Shown piece after piece: positions 2,468-33,457 of a DNA stretch of 64,000 nucleotides. Source of the stretch: a virus. Every line of letters begins with the position of its first letter. Positions within the stretch are counted from its first letter, which is position 1. Made by a program: the position numbers and the translations under genes. Location: positions 1-64,000 of the IMG/VR virus record IMGVR_UViG_3300028563_000016; one strand, 5' to 3'. The notes under the pieces are model-generated. The model worked only from the letters and a program-made list of their open reading frames with translations. It made no database searches and was not told where the DNA came from.

Positions 2468-2473
2468 GTATGT

Positions 2474-2836
2474 TTACTTTTTGTTGATTTGTGAAAAAAT
2501 CTCTTCAGGGCTGCTACCACTATCTTCTTCTTCTCGAAGTTGATTAATGTGTTCAGCAAGTTTGCCAAGCTGTTCATTCGCTTTTTGCATGACGGTTATT
2601 GCATTATGAATTGTGCGCCCATGGACTGCCCATTCAGAACCGCTATTCCCAACAATTTCAACGAGAATTTGTAATGTACAATGAGCATTTGCTCGATCGC
2701 ACACGCAATTGTTATAAATTTCTGTTAAAAGTGATTTTCGTTTATCTGATAAATTTTCAATGTCACCGAGCAACGCTTTAAATTCTTCAGTCTTCTTTTC
2801 AAAATCAATTTCTGTTGGTGGGATAAAATTCGCCAT
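2474..2836 (-). CDS. Hypothetical helical protein
   Basis: 120-aa ORF in the same run as the sigma factor and hub genes. Confidence 0.6.
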   Translation of the reverse strand: MANFIPPTEIDFEKKTEEFKALLGDIENLSDKRKSLLTEIYNNCVCDRANAHCTLQILVEIVGNSGSEWAVHGRTIHNAITVMQKANEQLGKLAEHINQLREEEDSGSSPEEIFSQINKK

Positions 2837-2851
2837 GTTTATAACTATTTC

Positions 2852-3598
2852 TCAATAATCGTTTTCATCCTCTTCCTTTTGTTCCATATATAATCGCTTT
2901 ATTACGGCAATCGCAGTGATGAGCTGCTTGTGTGACAAATTCGTCAAGTCTTTCATGTAAAGACTCATTGCCGCTTTGCTCACAATGTCTATTTCGTTCT
3001 TGTTTTGAAACAACGTTATGATGCCATTCAACGTTGAAAGTTCATTTTCGGTGCTCACATTTTCACGTATTACATGTAATCTATCTAAAATTTCCTGCGA
3101 AGCAAACTGATCTTCAAGTTGCTCGTCCTGAGCCTGTACTGAACACTTTTCTTCAAGAATGTGATAGTCTGAAAGAGTTAATGATTCAGGATCGTCTATT
3201 GACAAAAACTTCTTTGTTGACTGCGACTTTTGCTTCGTGCGAATTATCAACCAATTTTTTGCGCACACGTTGAAGTACGAAAATGCTGCACATCCTCGAG
3301 TGGGATCAAACTTATTCAAAGTTTCAAACAGAAAGCACACGCAGTCATTTTTCAATGTCTCATACGTGTCATGAGCCGACGTGAACTTGTGTATATTTAT
3401 CAAATTTTCGACAAGCTTCTCAAAAGCAGGAGCAATCTTTGTGACGTACGTCTTATTTCGCACGTTGAAGTCGTCTTCAGTCTGATACTCGACGACCGCA
3501 GCTTGCGTGTCTGCGTTGAAGTACATTCGAGACTGACGTGCCTTTTCACGCTCTTCAGGAGTTCCAGTTGTTGGCTTGCGTCTTCGTCGTTGTACCAT
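2852..3598 (-). CDS. Phage RNA polymerase sigma factor (gp55-like late sigma)
   Basis: Region-2-like LNKFDPTRG..AFSYFN..AKNWLI; MYFN..TQ.AVVEY. Confidence 0.7.
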   Translation of the reverse strand: MVQRRRRKPTTGTPEEREKARQSRMYFNADTQAAVVEYQTEDDFNVRNKTYVTKIAPAFEKLVENLINIHKFTSAHDTYETLKNDCVCFLFETLNKFDPTRGCAAFSYFNVCAKNWLIIRTKQKSQSTKKFLSIDDPESLTLSDYHILEEKCSVQAQDEQLEDQFASQEILDRLHVIRENVSTENELSTLNGIITLFQNKNEIDIVSKAAMSLYMKDLTNLSHKQLITAIAVIKRLYMEQKEEDENDY

Positions 3599-3664
3599 GA
3601 TATTTTTAATTTATAGCATTATGAAGAAGTTGAAATGTTTACAGATAATTATGTTTGAGGTTTT

Positions 3665-4417
3665 ATGAAAACGATCAAAGAAGCGCTAGAAGATTTTGAT
3701 GAAGAATTTCGTACTAATCCAATGTCTGCTGATAATCCGGATCATTGGGCATATTCTGGATCAAATCAACGTTTGCGACCAAGTGGTATGGGCGCTCAAG
3801 AAATTGATGATGACGAAGACAACGAATTTGATCTTAGTGAACCCGACGAAGAAGAAGATGGGTATCCCAATGAAATTCCTGTTGATGACGACAACATTTG
3901 CACGCATTGTGGATGTTCAAACGATGATCATGCTGTAGATTGTCGATATAACAGAGAGCTTGACGATGACATGTCACCTGACGCTTGTGAAGAGTGTGGT
4001 GGAAACATTGTTGGTGGCGAATGCACGAGTTGTGGCAAAGCAACAAGTAAATATGACATCAACGAAGACGGACCCGTTGGTTATGAAGGACACGAAGTCG
4101 AAAAAGAAGTAATTGAAGAAGCAGACGATTTTGGAACAACCGCCAATCGAACTGAAACAGAGCTTCCCGCTGACTATGAAACGTGCGGTGATTGTGGATT
4201 TGATCACGACTATGAGTACGAAGAAGCAGCAAAGTGGCACACTGAAAATCCAGGAAGCTACGATGGGTTGCAGGAAACTTTCTCGTTCGATCGCTTCATG
4301 GACAACATTTTACTTACTGAAACACGCACCATTCAATGTCAACCCGACAGTCCACAACGTATACGACAGGCACGTCGACAAGAACGACCTCTTGGAAGAA
4401 CTCGATACGCGAGGTGA
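3665..4417 (+). CDS. Acidic protein with three CxxC Zn-ribbon units
   Basis: CTHCGC, CEECGG..CTSCG, CGDCG; very D/E-rich; GAGG RBS. Confidence 0.55.
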   Translation: MKTIKEALEDFDEEFRTNPMSADNPDHWAYSGSNQRLRPSGMGAQEIDDDEDNEFDLSEPDEEEDGYPNEIPVDDDNICTHCGCSNDDHAVDCRYNRELDDDMSPDACEECGGNIVGGECTSCGKATSKYDINEDGPVGYEGHEVEKEVIEEADDFGTTANRTETELPADYETCGDCGFDHDYEYEEAAKWHTENPGSYDGLQETFSFDRFMDNILLTETRTIQCQPDSPQRIRQARRQERPLGRTRYAR

Positions 4418-4420
4418 TTC

Positions 4421-4990
4421 GTGGCATATCACATTTCAAGATTTGACGACATAAAAAATATGCTTCGACCGGGTGACGTTGTCGCCTTTGGCGGAAATGG
4501 CATTGTGTCAGACGTTGTCAAGTTGGCGTGTCATTCACACGTCTCACATGTCGGTTGCGCGCTCTCACTTGATCCAGTAAAAATCATTGAGAGCACGTCG
4601 TTGAATGGACTCGTTGGAGTGACAATAAACTTGCTTGAACAACGTTTGAATTACGACGGTGAAGTGTGGTTATTACCTTTGTCAGACGACATACATCGAG
4701 CACTCAATAAAACGTCGTTCTTCAACTTCATGTTTGATCAAAACAAGAAGCCATATGACTTCTACGGTGCTGCGGCGAGTGCTTTGCACATTGAACGTGA
4801 TAAATTAGACATGTCAAAGTTCTTCTGTAGCGAACTCGTCGTTGCAGGACTTGAAGCGGGTGGGTTGAACATAACGAACAGACCTGACTTTGTGCGACCA
4901 TGTGACCTGTGTGCGATGCACATATTTTCAGGTGAGTATTATCAGCTTATGGGTGAGCCACAAATCATTGATGAATACATAATTTGTTAA
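4421..4990 (+). CDS. Permuted papain-like amidase (YaeF/YiiX, NlpC/P60)
   Basis: PGDVV, SHVG, PYDF and FFCSELV (His before Cys, the permuted order). Confidence 0.85.
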   Translation: MAYHISRFDDIKNMLRPGDVVAFGGNGIVSDVVKLACHSHVSHVGCALSLDPVKIIESTSLNGLVGVTINLLEQRLNYDGEVWLLPLSDDIHRALNKTSFFNFMFDQNKKPYDFYGAAASALHIERDKLDMSKFFCSELVVAGLEAGGLNITNRPDFVRPCDLCAMHIFSGEYYQLMGEPQIIDEYIIC

Positions 4991-5262
4991 ATCAATGGTT
5001 CAATGTCCAAATCGTCGTTTTCTTCAACAAACATTGGTGCTGCAAGAAAGTGTTTTTGTAAGCATTCCCAATGTTTTTCTGGAACAACATCAGCAATAAC
5101 TCTATATCCTTTTGGCCGCATCCGTTCTTTGATGCGTTCACGACACTTTTCAACGCGTTCTTTTTGTTCTTCTTTTGTAAGATGAACTTTCGAAAGCTCG
5201 TTCAACAAAAATTCAGCGTCTTCACCTTCGAATACAGGCGTTGCTTCAATTGGTGTTGCCAT
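4987..5262 (-). CDS. Hypothetical protein (probable start MATPIEATP)
   Basis: GGAGA RBS before the internal ATG of the 4987..5352 ORF. Confidence 0.5.
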   Translation of the reverse strand: MATPIEATPVFEGEDAEFLLNELSKVHLTKEEQKERVEKCRERIKERMRPKGYRVIADVVPEKHWECLQKHFLAAPMFVEENDDLDIEPLI

Positions 5263-5332
5263 TACGAAATAAATTCTCCAATCACCCACATTAGAAAAAT
5301 TACACCAAACACAACACATAATGTTATGTACA

Positions 5333-5638
5333 TCATTGTGACACATCCTCAACTACATTTGTGATGTTTTTTGCAACGATTGCGACTGCGTCCCGTGATC
5401 TGATTAGTTCAGCGCAAAGAGAACGTATTTCAGGAGAATCATATAAGATTGGAGTGCTTGACACGTTTACGAGATTTTTGTAACAACTGTCAAGTTCATC
5501 TAACGCGTTTTCAATTGTTTCAAGCGTAGTTGATAACCTGTCTTGTTGTTCTGCACATTTTAGAAAAAGTTTTCGCGTAAGGAACGTTAATGACGTTGAA
5601 TACAAAATCAACAATATTATTGATAAAACAGTTAACAC
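5333..5638 (-). CDS. Membrane-anchored coiled-coil protein
   Basis: N-terminal hydrophobic helix followed by a heptad region. Confidence 0.55.
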   Translation of the reverse strand: MLTVLSIILLILYSTSLTFLTRKLFLKCAEQQDRLSTTLETIENALDELDSCYKNLVNVSSTPILYDSPEIRSLCAELIRSRDAVAIVAKNITNVVEDVSQ

Positions 5639-6804
5639 AATAAATCTCCAATCGCTGCATCGTATGATTTAAAAATTTCACTAAGCGCTAGTTTCTCAAC
5701 AATCTTTGGTTGAAGCTCGCGAGCCCATTGCGTTGGGATCTCTGAGCGCTCACGAAATTTTATCAATTTACTTTTGAAATCATGTTCAGATGCTTCTGCC
5801 CATCTCGCATTTTGCATAAAAATATTTGTATCAACACGTTGTGGTGGAATTTGTTGTAATGTATAATCAACCTTTACAAACTTTCCCAAGTTCAAAAACT
5901 CAGTGTGTGCGCTCCAATTCGTTGCAATGATTGGCAATCCTGACGCGGCAGCTTCACATGCGGGCAGGTTCCAACCTTCGCCTCGAGACAACGTCACCAT
6001 TGCTTTTATCTGCGGGTGTCTGTACAATGCTGCAACTTCGTCGTCGCTCATGTCGCCGTGAAGCAGTGTAACTTTAGGTTTTCCAGACCTGCGAACTTGT
6101 TTCAACAAGTCTTGTAACAGCTTCTTCGTGTTTGCTCGATCAATCTTGGTGTTCTTTCCAAGATTTGTCTTGATAACCAACCCTACATCGTCGTTACCCT
6201 TGAACGCCTCACAGAACCACTTGATCGTGTTGAAGATGTTCTTACGATCAGTACGTGCGTCTGCCGCTGTGAGTTGTCCGAACAATAAAAAGTTGAAAGG
6301 CGTCTCAAAGTCAGGCAACGTCAGGAGATCATTTTTTACGCACGCATCATTGTATGCTTCATTGACGACGTGTAGTGGTACGTTGACTGTGCCTGAATTT
6401 GTCAATGATGCTGCGGCATGCAAAGACGGCACGACGATTGCGTTCATCTTGTTACAAGCTTCAACCCACGTAGGATTACACCTATCGCACTCGACCATTG
6501 CCGACACGCCAATATTCACGTTACCAATGTCTGTCGTGAACTCGTTGGGCAACTTCACGTGAATTGCAACGTCAGCCTTTGTGGGAGGATTGCTGCGATG
6601 CATAATTTCACCGATGAGACCATCACAGGCGTTTTCATCTAAAATCCACGGGCATTGCCCCCACGGTGTGAGGTGGAATTTTACGTCAAGATTTGGTTTA
6701 GAAAGTAAAAATTTTGCAATCTGACGTCCATGCACAGAATATCCGGATTGTACACAAAGTGGACCAGAAAGAATTACGGTTTTCATAGTGTTATTGCCTC
6801 CCAA
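5632..6804 (-). CDS. Glycosyltransferase, GT-B/GT4-like
   Basis: SGYSVHGR, RKNI and SRGEGWNLPACEAAASGLPII (Ex7E); likely start at MKTVIL (6786). Confidence 0.9.
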   Translation of the reverse strand: MGGNNTMKTVILSGPLCVQSGYSVHGRQIAKFLLSKPNLDVKFHLTPWGQCPWILDENACDGLIGEIMHRSNPPTKADVAIHVKLPNEFTTDIGNVNIGVSAMVECDRCNPTWVEACNKMNAIVVPSLHAAASLTNSGTVNVPLHVVNEAYNDACVKNDLLTLPDFETPFNFLLFGQLTAADARTDRKNIFNTIKWFCEAFKGNDDVGLVIKTNLGKNTKIDRANTKKLLQDLLKQVRRSGKPKVTLLHGDMSDDEVAALYRHPQIKAMVTLSRGEGWNLPACEAAASGLPIIATNWSAHTEFLNLGKFVKVDYTLQQIPPQRVDTNIFMQNARWAEASEHDFKSKLIKFRERSEIPTQWARELQPKIVEKLALSEIFKSYDAAIGDLLC

Positions 6805-8042
6805 CGAGTATTATTTGGAAGCCGTTTATTTTTCCAATCATCAACAAGTTTTGTCAAAGTTTCATCCCACGTTGTTATAAGATTGTTCACGCTATACTCT
6901 TTACGAGTGTATTCCATTCCACGTAACCCAAGTTCTTTTCGTTTTTCTTCACCCATTTCATAAACTGTCATAAAAGCGTTTGCGAACGTTTTGTTTGAAC
7001 ACCAATCTTCATTTATCCAAGGAACAACTTGTGTTCCCCTGAGCGAGACTACTTCGGGTGTTATTGCGACGCCGTATTGTTCACCTGTTTCAACGTCTTC
7101 TATTTGGCGCGTGATGCCGCCGGTTTTAAGAGCTATATTTAAACGCCCGGTCATCCGAGATTCTAATAACGGCAAGCCAAATCCTTCTGCATTTGATCTA
7201 TTTACGACAACATCACACGCATTGTACAATGCGTTCATTTGTTCAAACCCAACACGATCGTTTGAGAATATAACATTGTCTTTCACATCAAACAACTCAA
7301 CGAGTGATTGTAAGTTTGGTCCCTCTTGATCAAAAGGATCAGTGTGCATCACCAACGTTGATTTTCTATGTCCGTATTTTTTTTCAAGTTCATCAAGAAA
7401 CATTTTGAACGAACACACTATGTCAGATGGATTTTTTCGATGCGCGTTGCGACTAACAAACAGTGGCATGAAGTGATCAACTCGTCCAGTACCAAAAAAC
7501 GCAAGCTTTGCATTTCGTGCATCTGCATCACTCATTGGAAAATACGTTTCTTTTGGAACAGCATGAGGCACGTATGAAGTTCTATCAGGAAACCATTCTT
7601 TCAAAAAAGAATACGCAACCCAATTGATACAATTCAATAAATCACAACTTTCATATAATGGTTTGTTGAACGTCGGTGCAGGATAGTTGTCCCACAACGT
7701 GTTGTATGCTATTGGACAAATTTGATGCACTTCGTCTTCATGAGCAAAGATGTGCATAAAAAAACGAGGATCAGTGAACAAAAGCATTACATCGGGTTTT
7801 TCAGATACCAATACTTGACGAATTAAATTTGGATCTCCAAACCCATTGATTGGCTTTATGATAAAGTCATCATTGACTACAATGGTGCGCATGTCTTCTT
7901 GTCTAAGGGCGGCTCCCAAACAACGAAACGTGAAACGTCCTGTCGATACTAATCCATTTATTAAAACACGACTTTGTGTCGCGACGCCCGACGTCGAAAG
8001 TTGCATGTCACTTATCATTAAAACTTTTATCTTTTGTGCCAT
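6783..8042 (-). CDS. Glycosyltransferase, GT-B/GT4-like
   Basis: SRNAHRKN; LYNACD..SNAEGFGLPLLE. Confidence 0.9.
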   Translation of the reverse strand: MAQKIKVLMISDMQLSTSGVATQSRVLINGLVSTGRFTFRCLGAALRQEDMRTIVVNDDFIIKPINGFGDPNLIRQVLVSEKPDVMLLFTDPRFFMHIFAHEDEVHQICPIAYNTLWDNYPAPTFNKPLYESCDLLNCINWVAYSFLKEWFPDRTSYVPHAVPKETYFPMSDADARNAKLAFFGTGRVDHFMPLFVSRNAHRKNPSDIVCSFKMFLDELEKKYGHRKSTLVMHTDPFDQEGPNLQSLVELFDVKDNVIFSNDRVGFEQMNALYNACDVVVNRSNAEGFGLPLLESRMTGRLNIALKTGGITRQIEDVETGEQYGVAITPEVVSLRGTQVVPWINEDWCSNKTFANAFMTVYEMGEEKRKELGLRGMEYTRKEYSVNNLITTWDETLTKLVDDWKNKRLPNNTRWEAITL

Positions 8043-8086
8043 ACGTAGATGTTAAGAAAATAACTCACCTCATATCTATTGTTTAG

Positions 8087-8275
8087 ATGAAACTGACAAT
8101 TAGACAACTTCGTCAAACAATTCGTGAAGGACTTGCTGGTTCACAGCCCGAAGAAGACTATTCTAACGAGATTGTTGATGACAAATCTCTTGACGGTGAG
8201 AGCTTGCTTGTAAATGACGAAACAAAGAAAAGAATGCGAAAATATTTCAAAGCAATGGGACTTGCAACGCATTGA
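8087..8275 (+). CDS. Small probable virion protein
   Basis: N-terminal MKLTIRQLRQTIRE motif; ATATCTAT upstream. Confidence 0.5.
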   Translation: MKLTIRQLRQTIREGLAGSQPEEDYSNEIVDDKSLDGESLLVNDETKKRMRKYFKAMGLATH

Positions 8276-8283
8276 GGTGTATC

Positions 8284-8538
8284 ATGAAACGTTTTTTGTT
8301 TGTGTTCATGTTTTTACTTTCATCATGCTCACCAATGATATCTTGGCATGATAAGCAAATGGTAGCCACAATGCAGGTTGCTGGTAAATCATTAAGTTGT
8401 TTTAATTCACAATGTTGCTTTCCATACAAACACCACAAGGACGTGAAAAATGTACACGTCATGGTGTGTTCAGAACAACAACTTGACAAAGATGGTTTTC
8501 ACCAACTGAACGTTTCAACAAAAATATACTTTCGTTAG
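8284..8538 (+). CDS. Putative lipoprotein
   Basis: MKRFLFVFMFLLSSC lipobox-like signal. Confidence 0.5.
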   Translation: MKRFLFVFMFLLSSCSPMISWHDKQMVATMQVAGKSLSCFNSQCCFPYKHHKDVKNVHVMVCSEQQLDKDGFHQLNVSTKIYFR

Positions 8539-25665: not shown

Positions 25666-26355
25666 ATGGCAATGATCAAAAATGCAAAGTCTCTCGAAGA
25701 AAAACCCTCAAAGAAAGCTTCTAAGAAAGAAGAAGTTGAGATTGCGCAGCTAAGCGAGCTCGCAAAGCTCGACGCGCTCATCAAGACTTTGTCTACAATG
25801 AAAGCAAATGTCGAGCAAAGCGTCAAAGAAACAGCTTTCAAAAAGTTCATTGAAGACGCAAAGATTTCTCACAAGAAGGTAGACAGCTTTCGCGGCGTTG
25901 ACGGTGACACGAGCGCTTCAGTTGAAATTCGAAAGCGCACGTCAGCTGCAAAGTTGAGCAAAGACGAAATAACATACCTGACTTCAAAAAACATTCCCGT
26001 TGAAACAGTCATTGAAGTACAGAAATTGTATTCTATCAATCCAAAATATGCAAGCGATGACGTGCTCATGGAAAAAATAGAAATTGCATTGGAAACAGCA
26101 CTTGAAGGAATAGTCGACACGTCAGATTTTTTTGTAGTTCAAGAAGAACGCAGCAAGGTTGTTGTCGGTGACGAGACGATCACAAAAGCATTCGCTGGAG
26201 AAATTGATGAACAAGTAATTCGCATGACGACATGTCTTGCAATCAAACCAAAGTGTGACAACTTTGACCTTGTTGTCGCATTGAATTCAGTTTTGGAATC
26301 TTGTGAGAGCGTCGAAGAAAAAGTTGAAACTGAAGAGACTGCGAAGGTTGCGTAA
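25666..26355 (+). CDS. Hypothetical protein (likely start MAMIK)
   Basis: Long ORF whose stop overlaps the ligase-like start; TGTTATACT directly upstream. Confidence 0.6.
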   Translation: MAMIKNAKSLEEKPSKKASKKEEVEIAQLSELAKLDALIKTLSTMKANVEQSVKETAFKKFIEDAKISHKKVDSFRGVDGDTSASVEIRKRTSAAKLSKDEITYLTSKNIPVETVIEVQKLYSINPKYASDDVLMEKIEIALETALEGIVDTSDFFVVQEERSKVVVGDETITKAFAGEIDEQVIRMTTCLAIKPKCDNFDLVVALNSVLESCESVEEKVETEETAKVA

Positions 26356-26963
26356 TGGAATACGATAAATTCACATATCTCTTTCCACCGAGACCAACCG
26401 CACAAATACCCAAAAATCTGTTGGGCTTTTACGAAAAACAAGGTTATCTTGCACAGGTGAAGAAGAATGGCACTTGCACAGTGATATTCGCTCGAGGACT
26501 TGATATTACTTTCATGACGCGACACAACGACTATCACAAGCAGTGGAGCGCACAGGACTTGCACAAACGACCGTTTCAGTCTTCAAGTTTGAAGTACAAT
26601 GTCTTTTGTGGTGAATTGATACACAACAAGACAAAGAACACAAAGAATCAATTATACATTTTTGACATCATTGTCAGAGATGGCACACAACTCGCTGGAA
26701 CTACGTTCGCAGAGCGGCAGGTGATGTTACACTCGATGTTTGGTGGAAAAGACGAGGGTGATCAGACGCGGGTGAACGAATTTGTGACAGTCGCAAACAG
26801 TTTCAACAAAAGGTTTGCTGACGTGTGGAATTCGTTGAGCGATGAAGACGAGGGAATTGTATTGAAGAAGTCAACGGGTAAACTTGAACCTTGCTTCAAC
26901 CAAAGCACAAATTGTGGATGGCAATGCAAGACGCGCAAAAGCACTAAGAACTATTCATTTTGA
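26355..26963 (+). CDS. ATP-dependent ligase/capping-type nucleotidyltransferase, adenylation domain only
   Basis: Motif I QVKKNG, III FCGEL, IIIa YIFDII, IV DEGIVLK and V CKTRK. Confidence 0.75.
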   Translation: MEYDKFTYLFPPRPTAQIPKNLLGFYEKQGYLAQVKKNGTCTVIFARGLDITFMTRHNDYHKQWSAQDLHKRPFQSSSLKYNVFCGELIHNKTKNTKNQLYIFDIIVRDGTQLAGTTFAERQVMLHSMFGGKDEGDQTRVNEFVTVANSFNKRFADVWNSLSDEDEGIVLKKSTGKLEPCFNQSTNCGWQCKTRKSTKNYSF

Positions 26964-27013: not shown

Positions 27014-27799
27014 TCATTTTATCACGTCTTCCCAGCGCGCACCCTCACTCACGAAGCCACGTTTTGCGAGGAAATTGGCTTCTTCTTTCTGAAAACGTGC
27101 GTCTTCAGTGTGATAGACTTCGCCACCCTGTTCGTCTATCGTGTACGAGTATGTAACCATCGGCAAGTACCCTGAACATTTTGCTTTGTGTAGAACAGGT
27201 AAGTAAAGCGCTCTGTCTCCAGCGCGTCTGACAAGTTCACCGTTCATGTTCGTGAAGTTTTCGTATGGCACGTCGTTGATGAGCTTTTTGCGAAACGTTT
27301 TGAGGTGCGATGAGCGCCATTCAGATTTATAAGGATTTTTGTCAGTTAGCGAACCACTAATATTTCTACATGATCCCGTCCAACGATGAGCTGTCCAAAC
27401 ACAATCATAGCCACGTTGATACGATATGTCTAAAGCGAGCAGCGCGTCACTGTCACAAAGTGCATCGTCACCATCAATTCTACACACGATGTCTTCGTCG
27501 GAGCAAAAATTCTTTATCCCGTAGAGCACGTTCGAAGTCTCGTAACACTTGCCACGATCAATGTCTTCGTTCCAAACGGTGATAATCTTAATTTCTTCTT
27601 CTGGTAAAGTTAGAAGTCTGTGAAATCCTGCAATGATGTCGTCTTCTTTGTCTGCCTCTTCTTTACTCGAACAGTCATCAATTAATATGATTTTCCAATT
27701 CGTGTACGACTGACACGCTATTGAGTGAAGACAACGAGCGAGCGTTTTTGATGCATTGAAGATTGGACAAACGAAAATAAACTTTTCACGTTTCATCAT
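27014..27799 (-). CDS. Glycosyltransferase family 2
   Basis: PIFNA..L..CL.SI..QSY.NW.IILIDDCS; IDGDD. Confidence 0.9.
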   Translation of the reverse strand: MMKREKFIFVCPIFNASKTLARCLHSIACQSYTNWKIILIDDCSSKEEADKEDDIIAGFHRLLTLPEEEIKIITVWNEDIDRGKCYETSNVLYGIKNFCSDEDIVCRIDGDDALCDSDALLALDISYQRGYDCVWTAHRWTGSCRNISGSLTDKNPYKSEWRSSHLKTFRKKLINDVPYENFTNMNGELVRRAGDRALYLPVLHKAKCSGYLPMVTYSYTIDEQGGEVYHTEDARFQKEEANFLAKRGFVSEGARWEDVIK

Positions 27800-28256: not shown

Positions 28257-28512
28257 GTGACAGTCTTTCTTTGACGGTTTCAAGCCAATCACACAAAATT
28301 TGTTTATCAATTTCAGAAGTAGTTTCTGACGTCATTATGACTGAATTCAAAACGTCAATATTGTTTGCAAGCGGTTGACGTTGCTTTACATATTTCTTTT
28401 TGCTCCCGTGAGCACGTCTGTACTTGCGATTTTCGTGAAAAGGACCACAAACGAATTCATTAAAGTCGTTGTCACAAATTTCTGACGCAGGGAGAATTTC
28501 AGGAGGATGCAT
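28249..28512 (-). CDS. Hypothetical protein
   Basis: Overlaps its neighbours in the minus-strand run. Confidence 0.45.
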   Translation of the reverse strand: MHPPEILPASEICDNDFNEFVCGPFHENRKYRRAHGSKKKYVKQRQPLANNIDVLNSVIMTSETTSEIDKQILCDWLETVKERLSHA

Positions 28513-28667
28513 TTATAATCCTGTTCCAACGTAAAATTTCATTTAATTCTTTTTCAGTTATTTCAAGTTCAAGTCGTCGCATTAATTCTTTTCCAACATC
28601 AGAACGCAAATAATCAATTTCTTGAAGAAGTTCATCATTTGTTAATTTTGTGAGATCGTTCATATGT

Positions 28668-29423
28668 TTACCAATCACACGCATCTCTAACAAGATCTTT
28701 TTTGATAGCTAAAACTTGACCATAATTTATATCTTCATCTGCTAACTGTCTCTCGTCTACAAAAATTCTCCTGTCAAGTCTGATAATTTCAGCTTCTTTA
28801 TATCCTTCTTTATCCCAATCAATCGTGTTGATAAAATCTGCGCATTTAATTCCTGGATCGTCTTTCGACGGGAGATGATAATCATCCATCAACACTGCGC
28901 TATTCACAAGCACCTTCGTTCCCTCCCAATCTGCCTTCGTGCCCTCGAACGAGTGATCAGCATCGATGTACGCAAAGTCGAACTTCTCACCCTTCTCAAT
29001 GAGCTGTGCCAAGACTGCTTGCGACGGGCCCTTGACAAAGGTGATGTTCTCAAACCACTCTTTCGGAAACACGTTCTGAAGCTGTTCAAAGAAGTTCTTG
29101 TCAGTTGCGATGTCCATCGTCAAGATTTTTCCCTTGACGCCCATGTCGTAGAACGCCTTTGCGACACAGAACGTAACGTAGCCGCGGCCCGTGCCGACCT
29201 CGAGGAACGACTTGAAACCATACTGCTTCACGAGGTAGTAAACGAGAATTCCTCGTTCATAATTGCTTCGATAATAACACCCAACAGATTTATAAAGAGG
29301 ATCACCGGGTGAACGAGTTCTCTTGGCTGTAAACTCCGCAATTTGATCGAAGTCGCCAAGACAAATGTCTTCAACATTAACGCAAAGTTCAGCGAGTTTA
29401 TCTTTAATGTGTACTATTTTCAT
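28668..29423 (-). CDS. SAM methyltransferase (Methyltransf_24-like)
   Basis: FLEVGTGRGY, FDFAYIDADHS.E....D and LMDDY. Confidence 0.9.
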   Translation of the reverse strand: MKIVHIKDKLAELCVNVEDICLGDFDQIAEFTAKRTRSPGDPLYKSVGCYYRSNYERGILVYYLVKQYGFKSFLEVGTGRGYVTFCVAKAFYDMGVKGKILTMDIATDKNFFEQLQNVFPKEWFENITFVKGPSQAVLAQLIEKGEKFDFAYIDADHSFEGTKADWEGTKVLVNSAVLMDDYHLPSKDDPGIKCADFINTIDWDKEGYKEAEIIRLDRRIFVDERQLADEDINYGQVLAIKKDLVRDACDW

Positions 29424-29941
29424 GTTTGCTCCAACAATTTCAAAATTTCATTGTCACACTCTTCAGAAATTTCATCCCATAGTGACTTATATTTTACGTT
29501 GTCCAACGTACGTACAGAACCATTTTTGTTCCAAGGTTTGTCAAGCAACACAATTTCAGCGAACGGCACAAATTCATTGTTTTCAATGTATCCGACGACA
29601 GCATCTTCGTTCGTTTCATTCTTATAAAATGACAAAATGCCAACGTATGTACCAATTTTTGGCCTCTCACTATCAAAATTTGGTCGATACAAACATGAAC
29701 ACTCAACTAACATCAACGTGTTGTCTGACACTTTTACAACAAAATCGGCGGGAGATTTTTTAGTTTCCCGACAGTACTCATTACATGCGTCTATTAGAAC
29801 CTCTGACAAGCACTCATACCACTCACGAATTGAACCACGAAACACGTATCCCGACGATATGATCGTTTCATTTGGTTCTCCCGTGTGTTTATCAACAAAA
29901 TTACCAGGCTGACACGAAAAATACATTTTCTTCATGTACAA
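29420..29941 (-). CDS. Stand-alone fragment resembling a gp23-type major capsid protein (A-domain/C-terminal part)
   Basis: PGNFVDKHTG, FRGSIREWYE.L.E.LID.CNE..R.T.K..ADFVV, YVGILS and VVGY..FVPF follow the gp23 motif order. Confidence 0.55.
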   Translation of the reverse strand: MYMKKMYFSCQPGNFVDKHTGEPNETIISSGYVFRGSIREWYECLSEVLIDACNEYCRETKKSPADFVVKVSDNTLMLVECSCLYRPNFDSERPKIGTYVGILSFYKNETNEDAVVGYIENNEFVPFAEIVLLDKPWNKNGSVRTLDNVKYKSLWDEISEECDNEILKLLEQT

Positions 29942-30084
29942 AATACTAATCTGTCGATGACAACGGGTACAAAATACGCATCAAAACGCCACTGTATACA
30001 TGATAAATCCCATTGCACACCAAATGCACACAAGAACTATCGCACCAATCAAAAATTGTTTATCGTCTTTTTTCGACAGGAACA

Positions 30085-30390
30085 TTAAATTAGCTCCTCC
30101 CTGCACTTCTTACAATTGTCGTTCGACCACAAGAAGTGTATCCACCCCAACGAAAACGTGCAGTGACAACCATCATAATACAGGTGATAAGAACCCCAAT
30201 GAAAATATTTCGTGATGCTGATCAAATAGTTCACTGAGTGATTATCATGCCATTTATTGCCATGCTTTGACTTATGCTGGTGAATGAAACCCGCATAAAA
30301 TTTCCCGATTTGAAACGTCCACCTGAACGCTAACGGGTAATATTCACCTATGCGAGTTTCAGGGACTTCTTTAGATTTCCAGAATATCAT
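30085..30390 (-). CDS. Hypothetical protein (aromatic/His-rich)
   Basis: 101-aa ORF overlapping the upstream stop. Confidence 0.5.
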   Translation of the reverse strand: MIFWKSKEVPETRIGEYYPLAFRWTFQIGKFYAGFIHQHKSKHGNKWHDNHSVNYLISITKYFHWGSYHLYYDGCHCTFSLGWIHFLWSNDNCKKCREELI

Positions 30391-30848
30391 TCTTCCTCGT
30401 AGTTGTCAATAGTTTCTTGCACAAGTTTCCAAAATTCAAGCGTGTCATCGTCATCAAGAGGAATTAGTCTCTTATTTCCGATTCGTTTCGAGTAATAATT
30501 TATGATGCGTGTAGTCGCATTCCGACGTCTGCCATCATCTATTTTTGACATCTTTACTTGAACTTTTTTGAAAGCCTTTTCTTTGTTGAACGATCCTTTG
30601 ACTTCGTGAAAGTATGCTCTCGCGAAACTATCAAGAAGTCTGGACACTTCGTTGAACAGCCAATGATCGTAGTCTTGTTGCACACAAAGCGAATTTTTAC
30701 GTGCCAATCGTGCTTTGTAGAATTCTCGTATTGCTCCAGTGAGGTATTCCAATAAATTATCAGTCCACACTTCTTGCGTGTGCGCTTTTTCCATGAGAAG
30801 CATTTTCTTAATGGCTTCTCGCAACAGCGTCTCTTCATATTTTGTCAT
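30387..30848 (-). CDS. Hypothetical, probable head-internal protein
   Basis: N-terminal LLREAIKKMLLME; TAGTTTAT upstream. Confidence 0.5.
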   Translation of the reverse strand: MTKYEETLLREAIKKMLLMEKAHTQEVWTDNLLEYLTGAIREFYKARLARKNSLCVQQDYDHWLFNEVSRLLDSFARAYFHEVKGSFNKEKAFKKVQVKMSKIDDGRRRNATTRIINYYSKRIGNKRLIPLDDDDTLEFWKLVQETIDNYEEE

Positions 30849-31003
30849 GTGAACATTATAAACTAATCGCGACAAAATTACACGTCATTGTATTGCGTGT
30901 AGAAGAAAGCCGAGCAAGAAACCAAACACGCTTCCCACGAGCACTCCCACTACGGGCCACCTGCGAAATATATCTGACAACGACGGTGTTTCAAATGAAA
31001 AAC

Positions 31004-31228
31004 TCATGACATTTCGACTTTCTCATCATTGATGGTGATTGTTTTAAAAAATCGAAAGTCATTGGCATCATACATTGGCGGTGAAATCTCTATAACGTAT
31101 TGTTTATTGGGAACGCGTTTTAGTTCAGGCGTAGATGCATCTTGCGCTTCTGATAGGCTACCAACACGAGGTTCTACGTTTGAAAGAATAGAACCCAATA
31201 CGTTTAATTGTTCATATGTTAATTTCAT
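31004..31228 (-). CDS. Hypothetical protein
   Basis: 74-aa ORF coupled to the upstream gene. Confidence 0.45.
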   Translation of the reverse strand: MKLTYEQLNVLGSILSNVEPRVGSLSEAQDASTPELKRVPNKQYVIEISPPMYDANDFRFFKTITINDEKVEMS

Positions 31229-32001
31229 AATAACTCCTTTTGAACGCTTCCATAATCAATGTTCAAATCTTCTAACTTCTTCTTGTCATAAATCACAAGT
31301 TTCATTGTCGGATTTGAATTCCGAATGTGATCAAGTTTGTCACGTTGTTCCCAACTCCAAAACGCGCCCTTGACGTCGACGTGTTCGTTAGTAGACGGGA
31401 GAAAGAAGTCTGGATAGTAAGAGCGAGTTGCGCCATCGGGAGTTGTGTATGGAAACCTGCCTCGGTGAGCAACGTAGTCAATGTTATTTGCGTCGAAGTA
31501 ACGAGCGACTGCGACTTCCCACGTGCCTTGAAGCTTCACTATCTCGCCGGATGGCTTTGTGTGAGCGTACCACTTGCACTTTCCGACGGGCACATTGTCG
31601 TACTTGCCGTCTAGCCAGGCTTGACGACGTTGCTGAGCATGTTGTTCTCTAAAAATAGGATCATTTGCAAACTTTTCTTTTCGAGTTTTAGATTGTTTTG
31701 CGCGAGCATCAGGCTGTTTCATCCCATTTTTATCGCCGACATTAACTTCGTTTCGAATTAGTCCTTTACTAATATTTTCAGCCCATTCAGGATGTGTGGC
31801 TTTTGAACGATAAACTTTACCACGTGCAGGATTATTTGTCGAAGCCCACACTTTATAACACATACGATTACAAAAACGACGTTCACGATGTTTGTAGCGT
31901 ACAAATTCTTTTGTGCCACACACTATGCATGTGACCTCGACTTCGGGATGTCTAGACATCACGTTTTCTATACGCCCTTCCAACCATTTTTTCCCAATCA
32001 C
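31225..32001 (-). mobile_element. Free-standing PD-(D/E)xK homing endonuclease with Zn-finger and NUMOD-like region
   Basis: CIVCG..FCNRMC, QGTWE and YYPDFFLP...VDVKG. Confidence 0.75.
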
Positions 32002-32914
32002 GATGTTCAGGTGGTACCAATTCTAAATTTTTATCTCGTATAGCTTCCATCAACTTTGGTTTCATCCCAACGGCATTTGACATGAAAACCATCGCAGAGA
32101 GGTCTTTCGGGAAACAATGGCCGCGGCCTCCGGGAATGCCATTTTCACCAGGTACATTCATGTGTGTGCCACCAAGACGAGGATCAAGCTTTGCGTATTC
32201 AACGATTTTATCGTAATCAACGTTATATCCTAACTCATCAAGTTTATTTGCTATTTGCCACAGTTCACAACTCAATACAACACGAGCCATGAGTTGAATA
32301 TTTGTGAAATACTTTACAAATTCAGCCGTTGAACTACTTGTCTTGATAATTGGTACGTTTGGAAATGCGGTTTGAAATAATTGTTTAACAACATTGATAT
32401 AAGGACGAGGCCCACCGAGAATTATGCGATTTTGATTTCGCATGTCGTCAACAGCGTTCTTTTCTGTTAAAAATTCAGGGCTGAAGCAAATTCGAAGTCC
32501 AGTATTTTCATACTTTTTATTCCACTTTTCAGTACTTCCAGGAGGAATTGTACTTTTTACAACAACAATATGATTTCCTGGGATGACGGCGAATTCTTCA
32601 AGAACACTTTCAACAATTGAAAGATCACATTCGCCGTCATCCCACATTGGCGTTGGAAGACAACAAAAATAAATTCCCGAAAACCCTTCCTTCGGTGAAC
32701 AGCTCTCGACTAACTCTCGAATGTTTTCAACGTTTCTATAATCAGGAGCTCCTGAACAATCAGTAAAATATCGTATTTGTGCTTTTTCAGCACCCACGGC
32801 ACACTTGCCTGCTTTGTCGTAGTTATAAACAGTCAGTCCACGCTCAACTAATACTTGAGCAAGTGAACCACCCACAAAGCCCGCACCTATCACTGCAACC
32901 GATGTCTTTGTCAT
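31952..32914 (-). CDS. UDP-glucose/GDP-mannose dehydrogenase family (short form)
   Basis: GAGFVG, CLPTP, VVKSTIPPG, SPEFL.E, AEFVKY..N, DPRLG and GHCFPKD. Confidence 0.93.
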   Translation of the reverse strand: MTKTSVAVIGAGFVGGSLAQVLVERGLTVYNYDKAGKCAVGAEKAQIRYFTDCSGAPDYRNVENIRELVESCSPKEGFSGIYFCCLPTPMWDDGECDLSIVESVLEEFAVIPGNHIVVVKSTIPPGSTEKWNKKYENTGLRICFSPEFLTEKNAVDDMRNQNRIILGGPRPYINVVKQLFQTAFPNVPIIKTSSSTAEFVKYFTNIQLMARVVLSCELWQIANKLDELGYNVDYDKIVEYAKLDPRLGGTHMNVPGENGIPGGRGHCFPKDLSAMVFMSNAVGMKPKLMEAIRDKNLELVPPEHRDWEKMVGRAYRKRDV

Positions 32915-32947: not shown

Positions 32948-33457
32948 TCACTTAATTGGCCACCACTCAGGAACTTTTGTTCTTGGCTCCCACGCAGCAA
33001 ATTTTGCCTTTTCACCCACGTAGTAGTTTCTGTACGCTTGCACTGCATCATCGTGATTTCTGTACTTTTCCGGCATTGCTTGCGCAAAGGGCGAGTGATG
33101 CTTGAAGTTTCCGCATCGATAAAATTCTTCACCCGCGAACTCTGACGCGCACTCGATGACGCGCTGCGACGCATGAACCCGCTTGTAGCGACGCGTGTAC
33201 TCGTCACAGAGCTCGAGCGAGTGCTTCACAAGCCAGTCAAAGTTGTCAGACGTTGCCATGGCCCACCTGACGCATGGGTGATGCTTGTGCGTCGGTTTGT
33301 ACAGACAACACGCGTATTCAGAATAACGTATGGGATCCCGAAGGTGTATTGCAGTCGACAAGATTTGGGCGCTTTCGCAAACCATTTTCACAACGTGGCG
33401 ATTGCACTGCATTTGTGCTGCTTCATGAGGATCTGACGACAAAATAAAAATGTTCAT
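32948..33457 (-). CDS. Pyrimidine-dimer DNA glycosylase-like protein (DenV-related)
   Basis: MNIFIL, HVVKM..E.AQ.LST, H.HHPC..W, EY..RY...H, QAMP and AYR.YY. Confidence 0.85.
   Translation of the reverse strand: MNIFILSSDPHEAAQMQCNRHVVKMVCESAQILSTAIHLRDPIRYSEYACCLYKPTHKHHPCVRWAMATSDNFDWLVKHSLELCDEYTRRYKRVHASQRVIECASEFAGEEFYRCGNFKHHSPFAQAMPEKYRNHDDAVQAYRNYYVGEKAKFAAWEPRTKVPEWWPIK

What the first reader, a model, noticed from the sequence alone, without database searches (positions are those of the whole stretch)
29420..29941. Stand-alone mini copy of the major capsid protein outside the structural module
Seen: a 173-aa ORF with FRGSIREWYECLSEVLIDACNEYCRETKKSPADFVV...YVGILS...VVGY...FVPF. From memory of gp23-family capsid proteins, these motifs parallel the ANEI.R.T.RG.GNF / GVL / VGYKG / YAPY series. 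The ORF lacks the N-arm and most of the P-domain and sits among accessory genes. Inference: a capsid-derived decoy against capsid-sensing defences (CapRel- or Lit-like), an assembly modulator or interference factor, or a decayed duplicate.
Basis: partly seen in the sequence, partly recalled or inferred. Interest (0 to 1): 0.72.

Follow-up and report, generated by a model that had tools for sequence, protein, structure and literature searches.

The report
Stand-alone capsid axial-domain mini gene
A giant uncultured T4-like phage from rhizosphere soil carries a small, intact, optional gene that copies only the central "axial" domain of a T4-type head-shell protein; it belongs to a large family not described in the papers I could search, it cannot build a shell, and it probably acts as a soluble look-alike of the shell protein, though its job is untested.

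Summary
The ORF at 29420-29935(-) is real and is homologous to the C-terminal third of gp23-type major capsid proteins (MCPs). phmmer against a 558-aa MCP gives E 2e-10 and pairwise BLASTP gives 7e-20. An alignment-based AlphaFold model (pLDDT 87.7) superposes on T4 gp23 residues 330-521 (Z 9.2-9.5).

It is a clean HK97 A (axial) domain. About 48 residues that form the P-domain excursion in the full MCP are excised, and a unique 38-residue helical tail is added. It belongs to a family of at least 129 clusters. The duplication is old, the family evolves fast, and its distribution is patchy.

Only the first ~52 residues (strand, loop, acidic helix) stay MCP-like: 58% identity to MCPs, against 22-27% for the rest. 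Related strains in four rhizosphere metagenomes lack exactly this gene, so it is an optional cassette and not a decayed duplicate.

In relatives the gene repeatedly abuts a two-domain UDP-sugar-dehydrogenase-like gene in sugar operons. That recalls the cellular Family 4 "A-domain encapsulins".

Function is untested. My best guess is a soluble capsid-domain mimic acting as a competitor or decoy (~0.35). The rivals are an enzyme partner and a head-assembly modulator. This scan has noted similar mini-gp23 genes before on other DNA.

The parts
29420..29935 (-). Mini-capsid (A-domain) gene, including the TGA stop. ATG 29935 is the favoured start (171 aa). Alternatives are ATG 29926 (168 aa, P0002) and TTG 29941.
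   Evidence: homology; fold
29762..29926 (-). Residues 1-55 (P0002 numbering): strand, PG-loop and long acidic helix (REWYECLSE). This is the only part still strongly MCP-like.
   Evidence: for a 52-position region defined on MCP P0014, about residues 1-50 of P0002 (mini-MCP 58%, mini-mini 54% identity; this protein 46%); near-invariant W3 P7 G8 F10 G16 F29 G31 E35 W36 Y37 E38 L40 E42
29537..29761 (-). Residues 56-130: the beta-sheet part of the A domain. It has diverged fast (22-27% identity within the family).
29567..29590 (-). Junction (residues ~113-120) where about 48 residues of the full MCP are missing (the YKGGS..YAPYVPL..RKGVMTRYGKK stretch, taken to be the P-domain excursion).
   Evidence: alignment; (about 105 of 192 gp23 residues aligned; encapsulin residues 140-265)
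29423..29536 (-). Residues 131-168: tail unique to this member, with a predicted helix at 146-167 and lower model confidence.
   Evidence: pLDDT 52-74; no similar tail on other ORFs of this record
29424..29972 (.). Optional cassette. This stretch (the mini ORF plus part of its leader) is replaced by a 37-nt spacer in related strains.
   Evidence: table 5 and 5c: joint 29423->29973 in all four runs, side 113-255, flanks ~87-90% identical
29420..29423 (-). ATGA overlap: the mini's stop TGA overlaps the ATG of the next gene, suggesting coupled translation.
28668..29423 (-). SAM-dependent methyltransferase (O-methyltransferase-like), immediately downstream in the same operon.
   Evidence: Methyltransf_24 3.9e-13, Methyltransf_3 5.4e-12
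31952..32914 (-). Two-domain UDP-glucose/GDP-mannose-dehydrogenase-like gene with no match to the C-terminal UDP-binding domain. It is the conserved neighbour of mini genes in relatives and lies 2 kb upstream here.
31225..32001 (-). DUF7487 / TnsA-like endonuclease-like gene directly after the dehydrogenase. It is a possible homing element that makes this a recombination hot-spot.
   Evidence: same arrangement in 10 of 80 DH loci
27014..27799 (-). Family 2 glycosyltransferase at the downstream end of the same co-directional gene array.

Best explanation
SHOWN:
- The gene encodes a folded, stand-alone copy of only the A (axial) domain of a T4/gp23-type HK97-fold major capsid protein.
- The hairpin that leaves the A domain for the P domain in the full protein has been cut out, and a private C-terminal helix has been added.
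- It has no N-arm, E-loop, spine helix or P domain, so it cannot build a shell.
- It belongs to an old, large, fast-evolving and patchily distributed family found in uncultured jumbo T4-like phages.
- Such genes coexist with a normal ~640-aa MCP gene in the same genome.
- Here it is a discrete cassette that closely related strains lack.

INFERRED:
- Selection holds only the first ~52 residues (strand, PG-loop, acidic helix) close to the MCP sequence. The protein therefore most likely works as a soluble look-alike of that MCP element and binds whatever normally binds it.
- The gene is optional, fast-evolving and sits in a variable island. I therefore think the partner is most likely a factor in phage-host or phage-phage conflict, such as a sensor of free capsid protein or a rival's capsomers. 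On this reading it is a competitor or decoy, not a building block.
For: Homology:
- phmmer finds 129 hits, including Gp23-bearing MCPs.
- BLASTP to MCP P0014 gives 7e-20.

Fold:
- The model has pLDDT 87.7.
- VIA gives Z 9.2-10.5 to T4 gp23 330-521, gp24 234-423 and the phage S6 capsid protein.
- All 50 top hits among 48,161 PDB representatives are HK97-fold proteins.
- The excised ~48-residue segment is visible in the alignment.

Coexistence with a full MCP: G001 and G013.

Old duplication and fast evolution:
- MCP segments cluster tightly with short branches.
- Minis are diverse with long branches, and same-genome mini and MCP do not pair.

Mosaic constraint:
- N region: 54% identity mini-mini and 58% mini-MCP.
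- The rest of the domain: 22-27%.
- MCPs hold ~70% throughout.
- E35, E38 and E42 on the helix are near-invariant.

Optional status:
- The joint 29423->29973 appears in four metagenomes, and the mini-bearing form is also present in them.
- Only 8 of 80 DH loci and 2 of 24 MCP-bearing partial records carry a mini.
- No mini is found in the 5 nearest complete phage records.
Against: - No binding partner was shown, and there are no expression data.
- The conserved N region may simply be the folding core of the domain rather than a binding surface.
- In this particular member two basic residues of the loop motif are lost (R5->C, K9->N).
- The repeated placement next to a dehydrogenase in sugar operons is not explained by a decoy role.
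- A decoy must bind a sensor without triggering it, which is an extra assumption.
- I found no described natural case of a capsid-domain decoy.
Confidence: 0.35

Rival explanations
1. Enzyme-associated A-domain protein, a viral counterpart of Family 4 'A-domain encapsulins'. On this reading it binds, stabilises or scaffolds the neighbouring two-domain sugar-nucleotide dehydrogenase, or another enzyme of the glycan operon such as the translationally coupled methyltransferase or the GT-like protein. Alternatively it presents a capsid-like acceptor surface to those enzymes.
For: Of five mini loci found without reference to the DH, four lie next to or near a DH-like gene in sugar operons: the window, L001, L019 and G013.

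In the reciprocal test, 7 of the 8 minis found near a DH abut it or sit one gene away on the same strand. They occupy different positions on both sides of the DH within the same operon backbone.

The mini overlaps the methyltransferase start here by ATGA, and the GT-like gene overlaps the mini in L099.

[quoted passage not shown] PF0899 (2pk8) aligns over 84 of its 94 residues at Z 6.0.
Against: - 72 of 80 DH loci have no mini within 8 kb, and about 7 operons with the same backbone lack it. The enzyme therefore does not need it.
- Close strains delete the gene cleanly.
- In G001 the mini lies by tail-sheath genes instead.
- A DUF7487 endonuclease-like gene recurs right after the DH, so adjacency may reflect a recombination hot-spot.
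- No fusion of a mini to any enzyme was found.
- There is no sequence match to Pfam DUF1884.
Confidence: 0.25
2. Modulator of the phage's own head assembly, or a minor head protein. The free A domain would dock onto MCP A domains or form capsomer-like rings. It could cap, delay or size-tune assembly, hold MCP soluble before assembly, or decorate capsomer centres.
For: The conserved element includes the long A-domain helix. A-domain helices are described as the main inter-subunit interface within a capsomer (PMC8346489).

Mini and full MCP coexist in one genome, and in G001 the mini lies in a structural region after tail-sheath genes.

Tandem double-mini proteins exist (P0101), which fits a self-associating module.
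Against: - The gene is dispensable in close strains and absent from most relatives, which is unusual for an assembly factor.
- Most copies lie far from head genes, among sugar or accessory genes.
- Minis do not track their own genome's MCP.
- There are no virion proteomics.
Confidence: 0.22
3. Decaying partial duplicate of the capsid gene with no function.
For: It is truncated relative to the MCP and diverges fast. This member has lost some motif residues (R5->C, K9->N).
Against: - All family members examined have intact frames.
- There are 129 clusters at 50% identity, with near-invariant residues across 115 aligned members.
- The internal excision is precise and shared across the family, and both ends of the domain are retained.
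- The duplication is old.
- The model folds confidently.
- The gene is tightly packed in an operon, with a stop overlapping the next start.
Confidence: 0.03

Closest known systems
T4-type major capsid protein gp23 and its vertex paralogue gp24 (Pfam PF07068; PDB 7VRT, 6UZC, 8GMO, 5VF3, 1YUE)
   Same: Clear common ancestry with the C-terminal third. It is 35% identical to a 558-aa Gp23-family MCP over 116 aligned positions. It has the same A-domain fold (Z 9.2-9.7, rmsd 2.5-3.0 over ~105 residues, gp23 330-521). The family shares the same last strand and the VLDMNII-type C-terminus; this member keeps the strand as VLLD and continues into its tail.
   Different: Only one of the HK97 sub-domains is present. 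There is no N-arm, E-loop, spine helix or P domain, and the P-domain hairpin inside the A domain is excised, so it cannot tile a shell. gp24 is a full-length paralogue with a defined place at the vertices, and this protein has no such place. The single sequence falls below the Pfam Gp23 threshold.
Family 4 'A-domain encapsulins' (Pfam PF08967/DUF1884; PF0899, PDB 2PK8; Andreas & Giessen 2021, PMC8346489)
   Same: A free-standing protein of ~100-130 residues that is only an HK97 A domain. 2PK8 aligns over 84 of its 94 residues (Z 6.0, rmsd 3.2). Both are encoded in operons with enzymes. The archaeal ones follow, among others, an NAD-dependent dehydrogenase (GAPDH) and bind it, and relatives of this gene abut an NAD-dependent sugar-nucleotide dehydrogenase.
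   Different: - Origin is independent and recent enough to be seen by sequence, from a gp23-type phage MCP. There is no match to DUF1884.
- It is viral, not archaeal or thermophilic.
- It has ~31 extra N-terminal residues (strand plus loop), which are its most conserved part.
- It is optional among close strains.
- No enzyme complex was shown.
Other mini-gp23 genes noted earlier by this scan in uncultured giant phages (e1-6030873, e1-5844437, e1-6011978)
   Same: Small intact genes that copy the A domain of a T4-type MCP. They were reported as fast-evolving, optional and of unknown function.
   Different: Those are on different DNA and have different contexts (next to the capsid gene, or behind a replication-type promoter). 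One carries a tail peptide shared with other proteins of its phage, and that was not found here. They do not come up as look-alikes by shared words. These are unchecked AI notes, not independent evidence.

Membership tests
T4-type major capsid protein (Pfam Gp23, PF07068) | Significant match of the protein itself to the Gp23 profile | tested here: not met
   There is no Pfam hit at E<=10 for the protein itself. Homology is seen only through phmmer to Gp23-bearing MCPs, BLASTP at 7e-20, and relatives such as P0003, P0067 and P0091, some of which pass the Gp23 threshold over profile positions ~213-315.
T4-type major capsid protein (Pfam Gp23, PF07068) | Complete HK97 fold (N-arm, E-loop, P domain with spine helix, A domain) able to form capsomers and a shell | tested here: not met
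   The model and alignments cover only gp23 330-521, minus a ~48-residue excursion. The protein is 168-171 aa, against ~640 aa for this lineage's MCPs.
T4-type major capsid protein (Pfam Gp23, PF07068) | A-domain fold shared with gp23/gp24 | tested here: met
   Z 9.2-9.7 to gp23 and gp24 with rmsd 2.5-3.0 over 102-107 residues. Foldseek's top hit is 5vf3_a at E 8.8e-4.
Family 4 A-domain encapsulins (PF08967/DUF1884) | The protein consists of an HK97 A domain only, ~100 aa | tested here: met
   Model residues 1-130 form an A domain. 2pk8_A gives Z 6.0 with 84 of its 94 residues aligned to model residues 32-129.
Family 4 A-domain encapsulins (PF08967/DUF1884) | Sequence match to Pfam PF08967 | tested here: not met
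   There are no Pfam hits for P0002 at E<=10. DUF1884 is not among the families hit by 41 relatives, nor by the 20 relatives scanned.
Family 4 A-domain encapsulins (PF08967/DUF1884) | Encoded directly downstream of an enzyme in a conserved two-component operon | tested here: inconclusive
   Relatives abut a DH-like gene on either side in 7 of the 8 DH loci that carry a mini, but 72 of 80 DH loci lack a mini. Here the DH is 2 kb upstream and the coupled neighbour is a methyltransferase.
Family 4 A-domain encapsulins (PF08967/DUF1884) | Physical complex with the partner enzyme, or self-assembly into facets | not testable with these tools
   This needs biochemistry or a multi-copy co-fold. Only one complex job was available.
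Capsid-mimic decoy / anti-defence protein (no curated family) | Blocks activation of a capsid-sensing defence system by the cognate MCP | not tested
   Host, defence system and assay are all unavailable. Only indirect traits were seen (optional, fast-evolving, MCP-like element).

The most novel reading that the evidence does not exclude
Jumbo T4-like phages carry a widespread family of soluble capsid-domain mimics. Each is a free axial domain that keeps only the MCP's strand-loop-acidic-helix element and acts as a natural decoy or antagonist of factors that recognise unassembled capsid protein, such as host capsid-sensing immunity or a competitor's capsomers. This would be the first structural-protein-derived decoy of its kind.
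Probability: 0.25. Interest if true: 0.85.

Novelty: new variant of a known kind. Interest (0 to 1): 0.6.

Why it matters
Stand-alone HK97 A domains are known only from a small set of archaeal and thermophilic 'A-domain encapsulins', whose role is itself unknown. I found no published description of a phage-borne version.

This gene shows that phages have independently made the same cut-down module from their own capsid gene. It has spread into a large, diverse and optional family, and selection keeps one short capsid-like element intact.

That gives a concrete, testable handle on three questions:
- what reads that capsid element in infected cells (defence sensors, assembly partners or glycan enzymes);
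- how A-domain-only proteins arise;
- whether A-domain proteins in general are enzyme partners.

The recurrent pairing with a dehydrogenase parallels the archaeal GAPDH case and is worth testing.

Tried and rejected
Searches with the single sequence found nothing:
- Pfam, PHROGs and PDB sequence searches.
- The word-index protein search found only the protein itself.
- tblastn of P0001 and P0016 against 50,697 phage records found no match. P0003 hit only an MCP locus.
- The ESM Atlas gave no usable hit.
- The single-sequence AlphaFold model was poor (pLDDT 45).

Attempts to get genomic context:
- The search for related loci with P0002 or P0044 found nothing.
- With the mini alignment or P0005 it was swamped by full MCPs.
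- The N-terminal extension of the ~232-aa forms is too divergent (19% identity) to use as a search pattern.

Interaction and expression:
- Complex prediction of the window's dehydrogenase with the mini returned no verdict (score 0.00, controls not run). This counts neither for nor against binding.
- No RNA holder is listed among the public runs.
- Sigma-70-like promoter and terminator matches are no more frequent than in shuffles, and there is no T4 late-promoter motif near the gene.

Selection and sequence comparisons:
- dN/dS could not be measured. The only close pair with DNA differs at 2 codons and all other pairs are saturated. The variant table from laid contigs was cut off before reaching the mini ORF.
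- The C-terminal tail does not recur on other ORFs of this 75.7-kb record, and the record holds no second A-domain or MCP hit.
- There is no gene conversion or co-variation with the own-genome MCP. The own MCP ranked 1st by only 0.009 in one genome and 11th of 22 in the other.
- No Rosetta-stone fusion to an enzyme exists. The longer relatives are tandem minis, loop insertions or tails.

Rejected readings:
- 'FVPF = YAPY'.
- 'Decayed duplicate'.
- 'Recent copy of this phage's own MCP'.

Literature: searches found no description of phage-borne A-domain minis or capsid-domain decoys. That library is incomplete.
Full report
**1. The observation**

The minus strand carries an open frame at 29420-29941. 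Public protein collections hold it as a 168-aa protein starting at ATG 29926 (P0002). Most small relatives begin M-x3-8-YWSR, which makes ATG 29935 (MKKMYFSC, 171 aa) the most likely start.

The gene sits in a long co-directional, tightly packed minus-strand array, in this order:
- a two-domain UDP-glucose/GDP-mannose-dehydrogenase-like gene (31952-32914);
- a DUF7487/TnsA-like endonuclease-like gene (31225-32001);
- several small ORFs;
- the mini gene;
- a SAM methyltransferase (28668-29423);
- further small ORFs;
- a GT2 glycosyltransferase (27014-27799).

The mini's TGA overlaps the methyltransferase ATG as ATGA.

The window is the first 64 kb of a 75.7-kb IMG/VR record judged 22% complete, which implies a genome of about 340 kb. 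The record holds no Gp23-type or NCLDV-type capsid gene.

**2. Is it capsid-derived?**

On its own the sequence matches nothing in Pfam, PHROGs or PDB sequences, in the word-indexed protein collection or in cultured-phage genomes.

An exhaustive phmmer search of 1.84 billion cluster representatives found 129 relatives at E<1e-3. They fall into four groups:
- About 76 small proteins of 120-180 aa. They start a few residues before a YWSRxPGKFVNKxTG motif and typically end with VLDMNII.
- A subgroup of about 232-241 aa with an extra ~100-residue N-terminal region.
- A few with loop insertions, C-terminal tails or a tandem pair of mini domains (P0101).
- Full-length 558-670-aa proteins with strong Pfam Gp23 matches (E 1e-69 to 1e-77). 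These are matched in their C-terminal third and end with the same VLDMNII.

Pairwise BLASTP of the query to one such MCP gives E 7e-20, with query residues 2-103 matching MCP residues 371-485. A profile of the small family has T4 gp24 as its only PDB sequence hits, though weakly (E~0.8).

The full MCP of this lineage matches 2,589 T4-like phage records. The nearest cultured ones are the Flavobacterium phage immuto isolates (48%), Microcystis phage Mel-JY01 (50%) and Rhodothermus phage RM378 (39%). The parent family is therefore unambiguous.

**3. Structure**

With the 115-sequence family alignment, AlphaFold gives a confident model: mean pLDDT 87.7, above 90 for residues 1-130, and 52-74 for the tail, which forms a helix at 146-167.

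- Foldseek's best PDB hits are T4 gp24 (5vf3_a, E 8.8e-4; 1yue), the phage P1 head, jumbo phage S6 and T4 gp23.
- Its best viral-model hits are MCPs and vertex proteins.
- VIA-align gives Z 10.5 to the S6 capsid protein (residues 360-529), Z 9.7 to gp24 (234-423) and Z 9.2-9.5 to T4 gp23 residues 330-521, which runs to its C-terminus. Rmsd is 2.5-3.0 Å over 102-107 residues.
- A Foldseek-independent search of 48,161 PDB representatives returns only HK97-fold capsid and encapsulin chains in the top 50.

Encapsulins align over residues ~140-265, which I take to be their A domain. A local alignment of minis with MCP segments shows what was removed. The minis follow the MCP from FWSR to ...ILVG, skip about 48 residues (YKGGS...YAPYVPL...RKGVMTRYGKK...) and resume at the final strand.

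From general knowledge of the HK97 fold (not tested here), that skipped stretch is the excursion from the A domain back into the P domain. The protein is thus a cleanly excised A (axial) domain.

**4. The family's evolution**

In a maximum-likelihood tree of 110 A-domain segments:
- The MCP segments form one tight cluster with short branches (0.01-0.3).
- The minis are spread over many deep, long-branched clades (0.4-1.5).
- The ~232-aa forms make one clade.
- Where one record holds both a mini and a full MCP (G001, 11 kb apart; G013, 65 kb apart), the two do not group together.

The duplication is therefore old, and the minis evolve several times faster than the MCPs.

Constraint is strikingly uneven:

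| Region | mini-mini | mini-MCP | MCP-MCP |
|---|---|---|---|
| First 52 residues (strand, PG-loop, long helix) | 54% | 58% | ~70% |
| Rest of the domain | 22% | 27% | ~70% |

This window's protein follows the same pattern (46% against 19-22%).

Near-invariant positions across 115 members include W3, P7, G8, F10, G16, F29, G31, W36, Y37, L40 and three acidic residues on one helix face, E35, E38 and E42. I saw no tracking of the own-genome MCP. A dN/dS estimate was not possible.

**5. Distribution**

The mini is patchy:
- Only 2 of 24 partial records that hold the full MCP also hold a mini.
- None of the five nearest complete phage records (three cultured, two huge uncultured) has one.

Public rhizosphere metagenomes hold this DNA. 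Contigs from four of them show two forms side by side:
- The mini-bearing form, with 0-5 differences per contig.
- A relative about 87-90% identical in the flanks, in which 29423 is joined to 29973 through a 37-nt spacer.

The relative keeps the methyltransferase ATG and a leader that resembles the one now in front of the mini, and it lacks exactly the mini ORF. The gene is therefore a discrete, dispensable cassette.

**6. Genomic company**

Mini loci found without reference to neighbours:

| Locus | Arrangement |
|---|---|
| L001 | PseB-like, DegT, GNAT, two unknowns, DH, MINI, cytidylyltransferase-NUDIX, radical SAM |
| L019 | PseB-like, DegT, GNAT, formyltransferase, GT-like, MINI (232-aa form), DH, cytidylyltransferase-NUDIX |
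| G013 | GT1 and methyltransferases, GT-like, MINI, 283-aa unknown, DH |
| G001 | the mini follows two tail-sheath-like genes |

The DH is a well-conserved gene of this lineage. It is 58-69% identical across relatives, 300-340 aa long, contains only the N-terminal and central domains, and occurs on contigs up to 349 kb.

For the reciprocal test I fetched 80 DH loci with 8-kb flanks and searched them with a family HMM:
- Eight loci carry a mini.
- Seven of those minis abut the DH or sit one gene away on the same strand.
- The positions differ: GT-like|MINI|DH, DH|MINI|CT-NUDIX, MINI|unknown|DH and MINI|DH.
- About seven operons with the same backbone lack a mini.

A DUF7487 endonuclease-like gene recurs immediately after the DH in ten loci and in this window. 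The linkage to the DH is therefore real, but it has two possible causes: functional coupling, or a recombination hot-spot.

**7. Comparison with what is known**

The closest described kind is the Family 4 'A-domain encapsulins'. These are ~100-aa A-domain-only proteins (Pfam DUF1884; PF0899, PDB 2PK8) found in hyperthermophilic archaea and two Bacteroidetes genera. They are encoded downstream of enzymes (hydrogenase, OsmC, GAPDH, DeoC), their function is unknown, and a stable GAPDH complex has been reported (PMC8346489).

The model aligns to 2PK8 over 84 of its 94 residues (Z 6.0). There is no sequence match to DUF1884, and the phage protein's most conserved part, the N-terminal strand and loop, lies outside the 2PK8 alignment.

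This gene is therefore an independent, phage-borne, gp23-derived version of the same idea, not a member of that family. It is also not a capsid or vertex protein in any functional sense, because most of the fold is missing.

Earlier notes of this scan report similar mini-gp23 genes in other giant phages. I used them as leads only.

**8. Mechanism**

Shown:
- an intact, folded, stand-alone A domain;
- an old family that evolves fast;
- an optional cassette;
- a capsid-like strand-loop-helix element under constraint;
- recurrent linkage to a sugar-nucleotide dehydrogenase gene.

Inferred: it acts through the retained capsid-like element as a soluble stand-in for the MCP's axial domain. My odds are:
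- competitor or decoy in phage-host or phage-phage conflict, about 0.35, because optional, fast-evolving island genes are usually of this kind;
- enzyme partner in the glycan operon, encapsulin-like, about 0.25;
- modulator or minor component of the phage's own head, about 0.22;
- dead duplicate, about 0.03;
- something else, the remainder.

A co-fold of the DH with the mini gave no verdict, and no expression data could be found.

**9. Verdict**

Of its functional options, one (decay) is rejected and the others remain open.

The finding is a new, phage-borne variant of a known but poorly understood kind of protein. It is of moderate to high interest and can be tested with ordinary biochemistry.

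Noticed in passing
window 31952-32914 (-); relatives P0132-P0250: The UDP-glucose/GDP-mannose-dehydrogenase-like gene has only the NAD-binding and central domains (300-340 aa, no match to the C-terminal UDP-binding domain). It is conserved at 58-69% identity on contigs up to 349 kb. It appears to be a lineage-wide, two-domain form of a normally three-domain enzyme.
   Followed up: partly
window 31225-32001 (-); L191, L192, L194, L196, L204, L209, L215, L224, L231 and others: A DUF7487/TnsA-like endonuclease-like gene lies directly downstream of the dehydrogenase in this window and in 10 of 80 related loci. It overlaps the DH's 3' end by 50 nt here. This looks like a homing endonuclease that targets the DH gene.
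   Followed up: partly
window 30381-30892: Contigs of the related strain also appear to skip the 162-aa ORF (30387-30875) and other short stretches (28499-28821, 30225-30347). The region between the DH and the GT2 gene therefore looks like a patchwork of optional small ORFs. Support is weak (only 35 letters on the shorter side of the joint).
   Followed up: no
P0101 (432 aa): One family member is a tandem pair of mini A domains joined by a ~100-residue linker. Others carry 40-residue loop insertions (P0091, P0114) or long C-terminal tails (P0125).
   Followed up: partly
L019:9713-10411; L099:6105-6803 (-); P0003, P0008, P0009 and others: A monophyletic subgroup of ~232-241-aa forms has an extra ~100-residue N-terminal region with no Pfam match. 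It is only 19% identical between two members, and its nature is unknown.
   Followed up: partly
L098 (G001) 2321-5365 and 5468-8476: Two adjacent ~1,000-aa ORFs both match tail-sheath domains, which suggests duplicated giant sheath genes. They lie just upstream of that record's very divergent mini copy.
   Followed up: no
window 26355-26963 (+) and 32948-33457 (-): The first is a small ATP-dependent ligase/capping-enzyme-like nucleotidyltransferase (202 aa). The second is a pyrimidine-dimer DNA glycosylase (T4 endonuclease V-like). They flank the glycan region.
   Followed up: no
window 29981-30106 (-): A 41-aa ORF with a hydrophobic, membrane-helix-like stretch lies directly upstream of the mini gene. 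It is retained in the mini-less strain.
   Followed up: no
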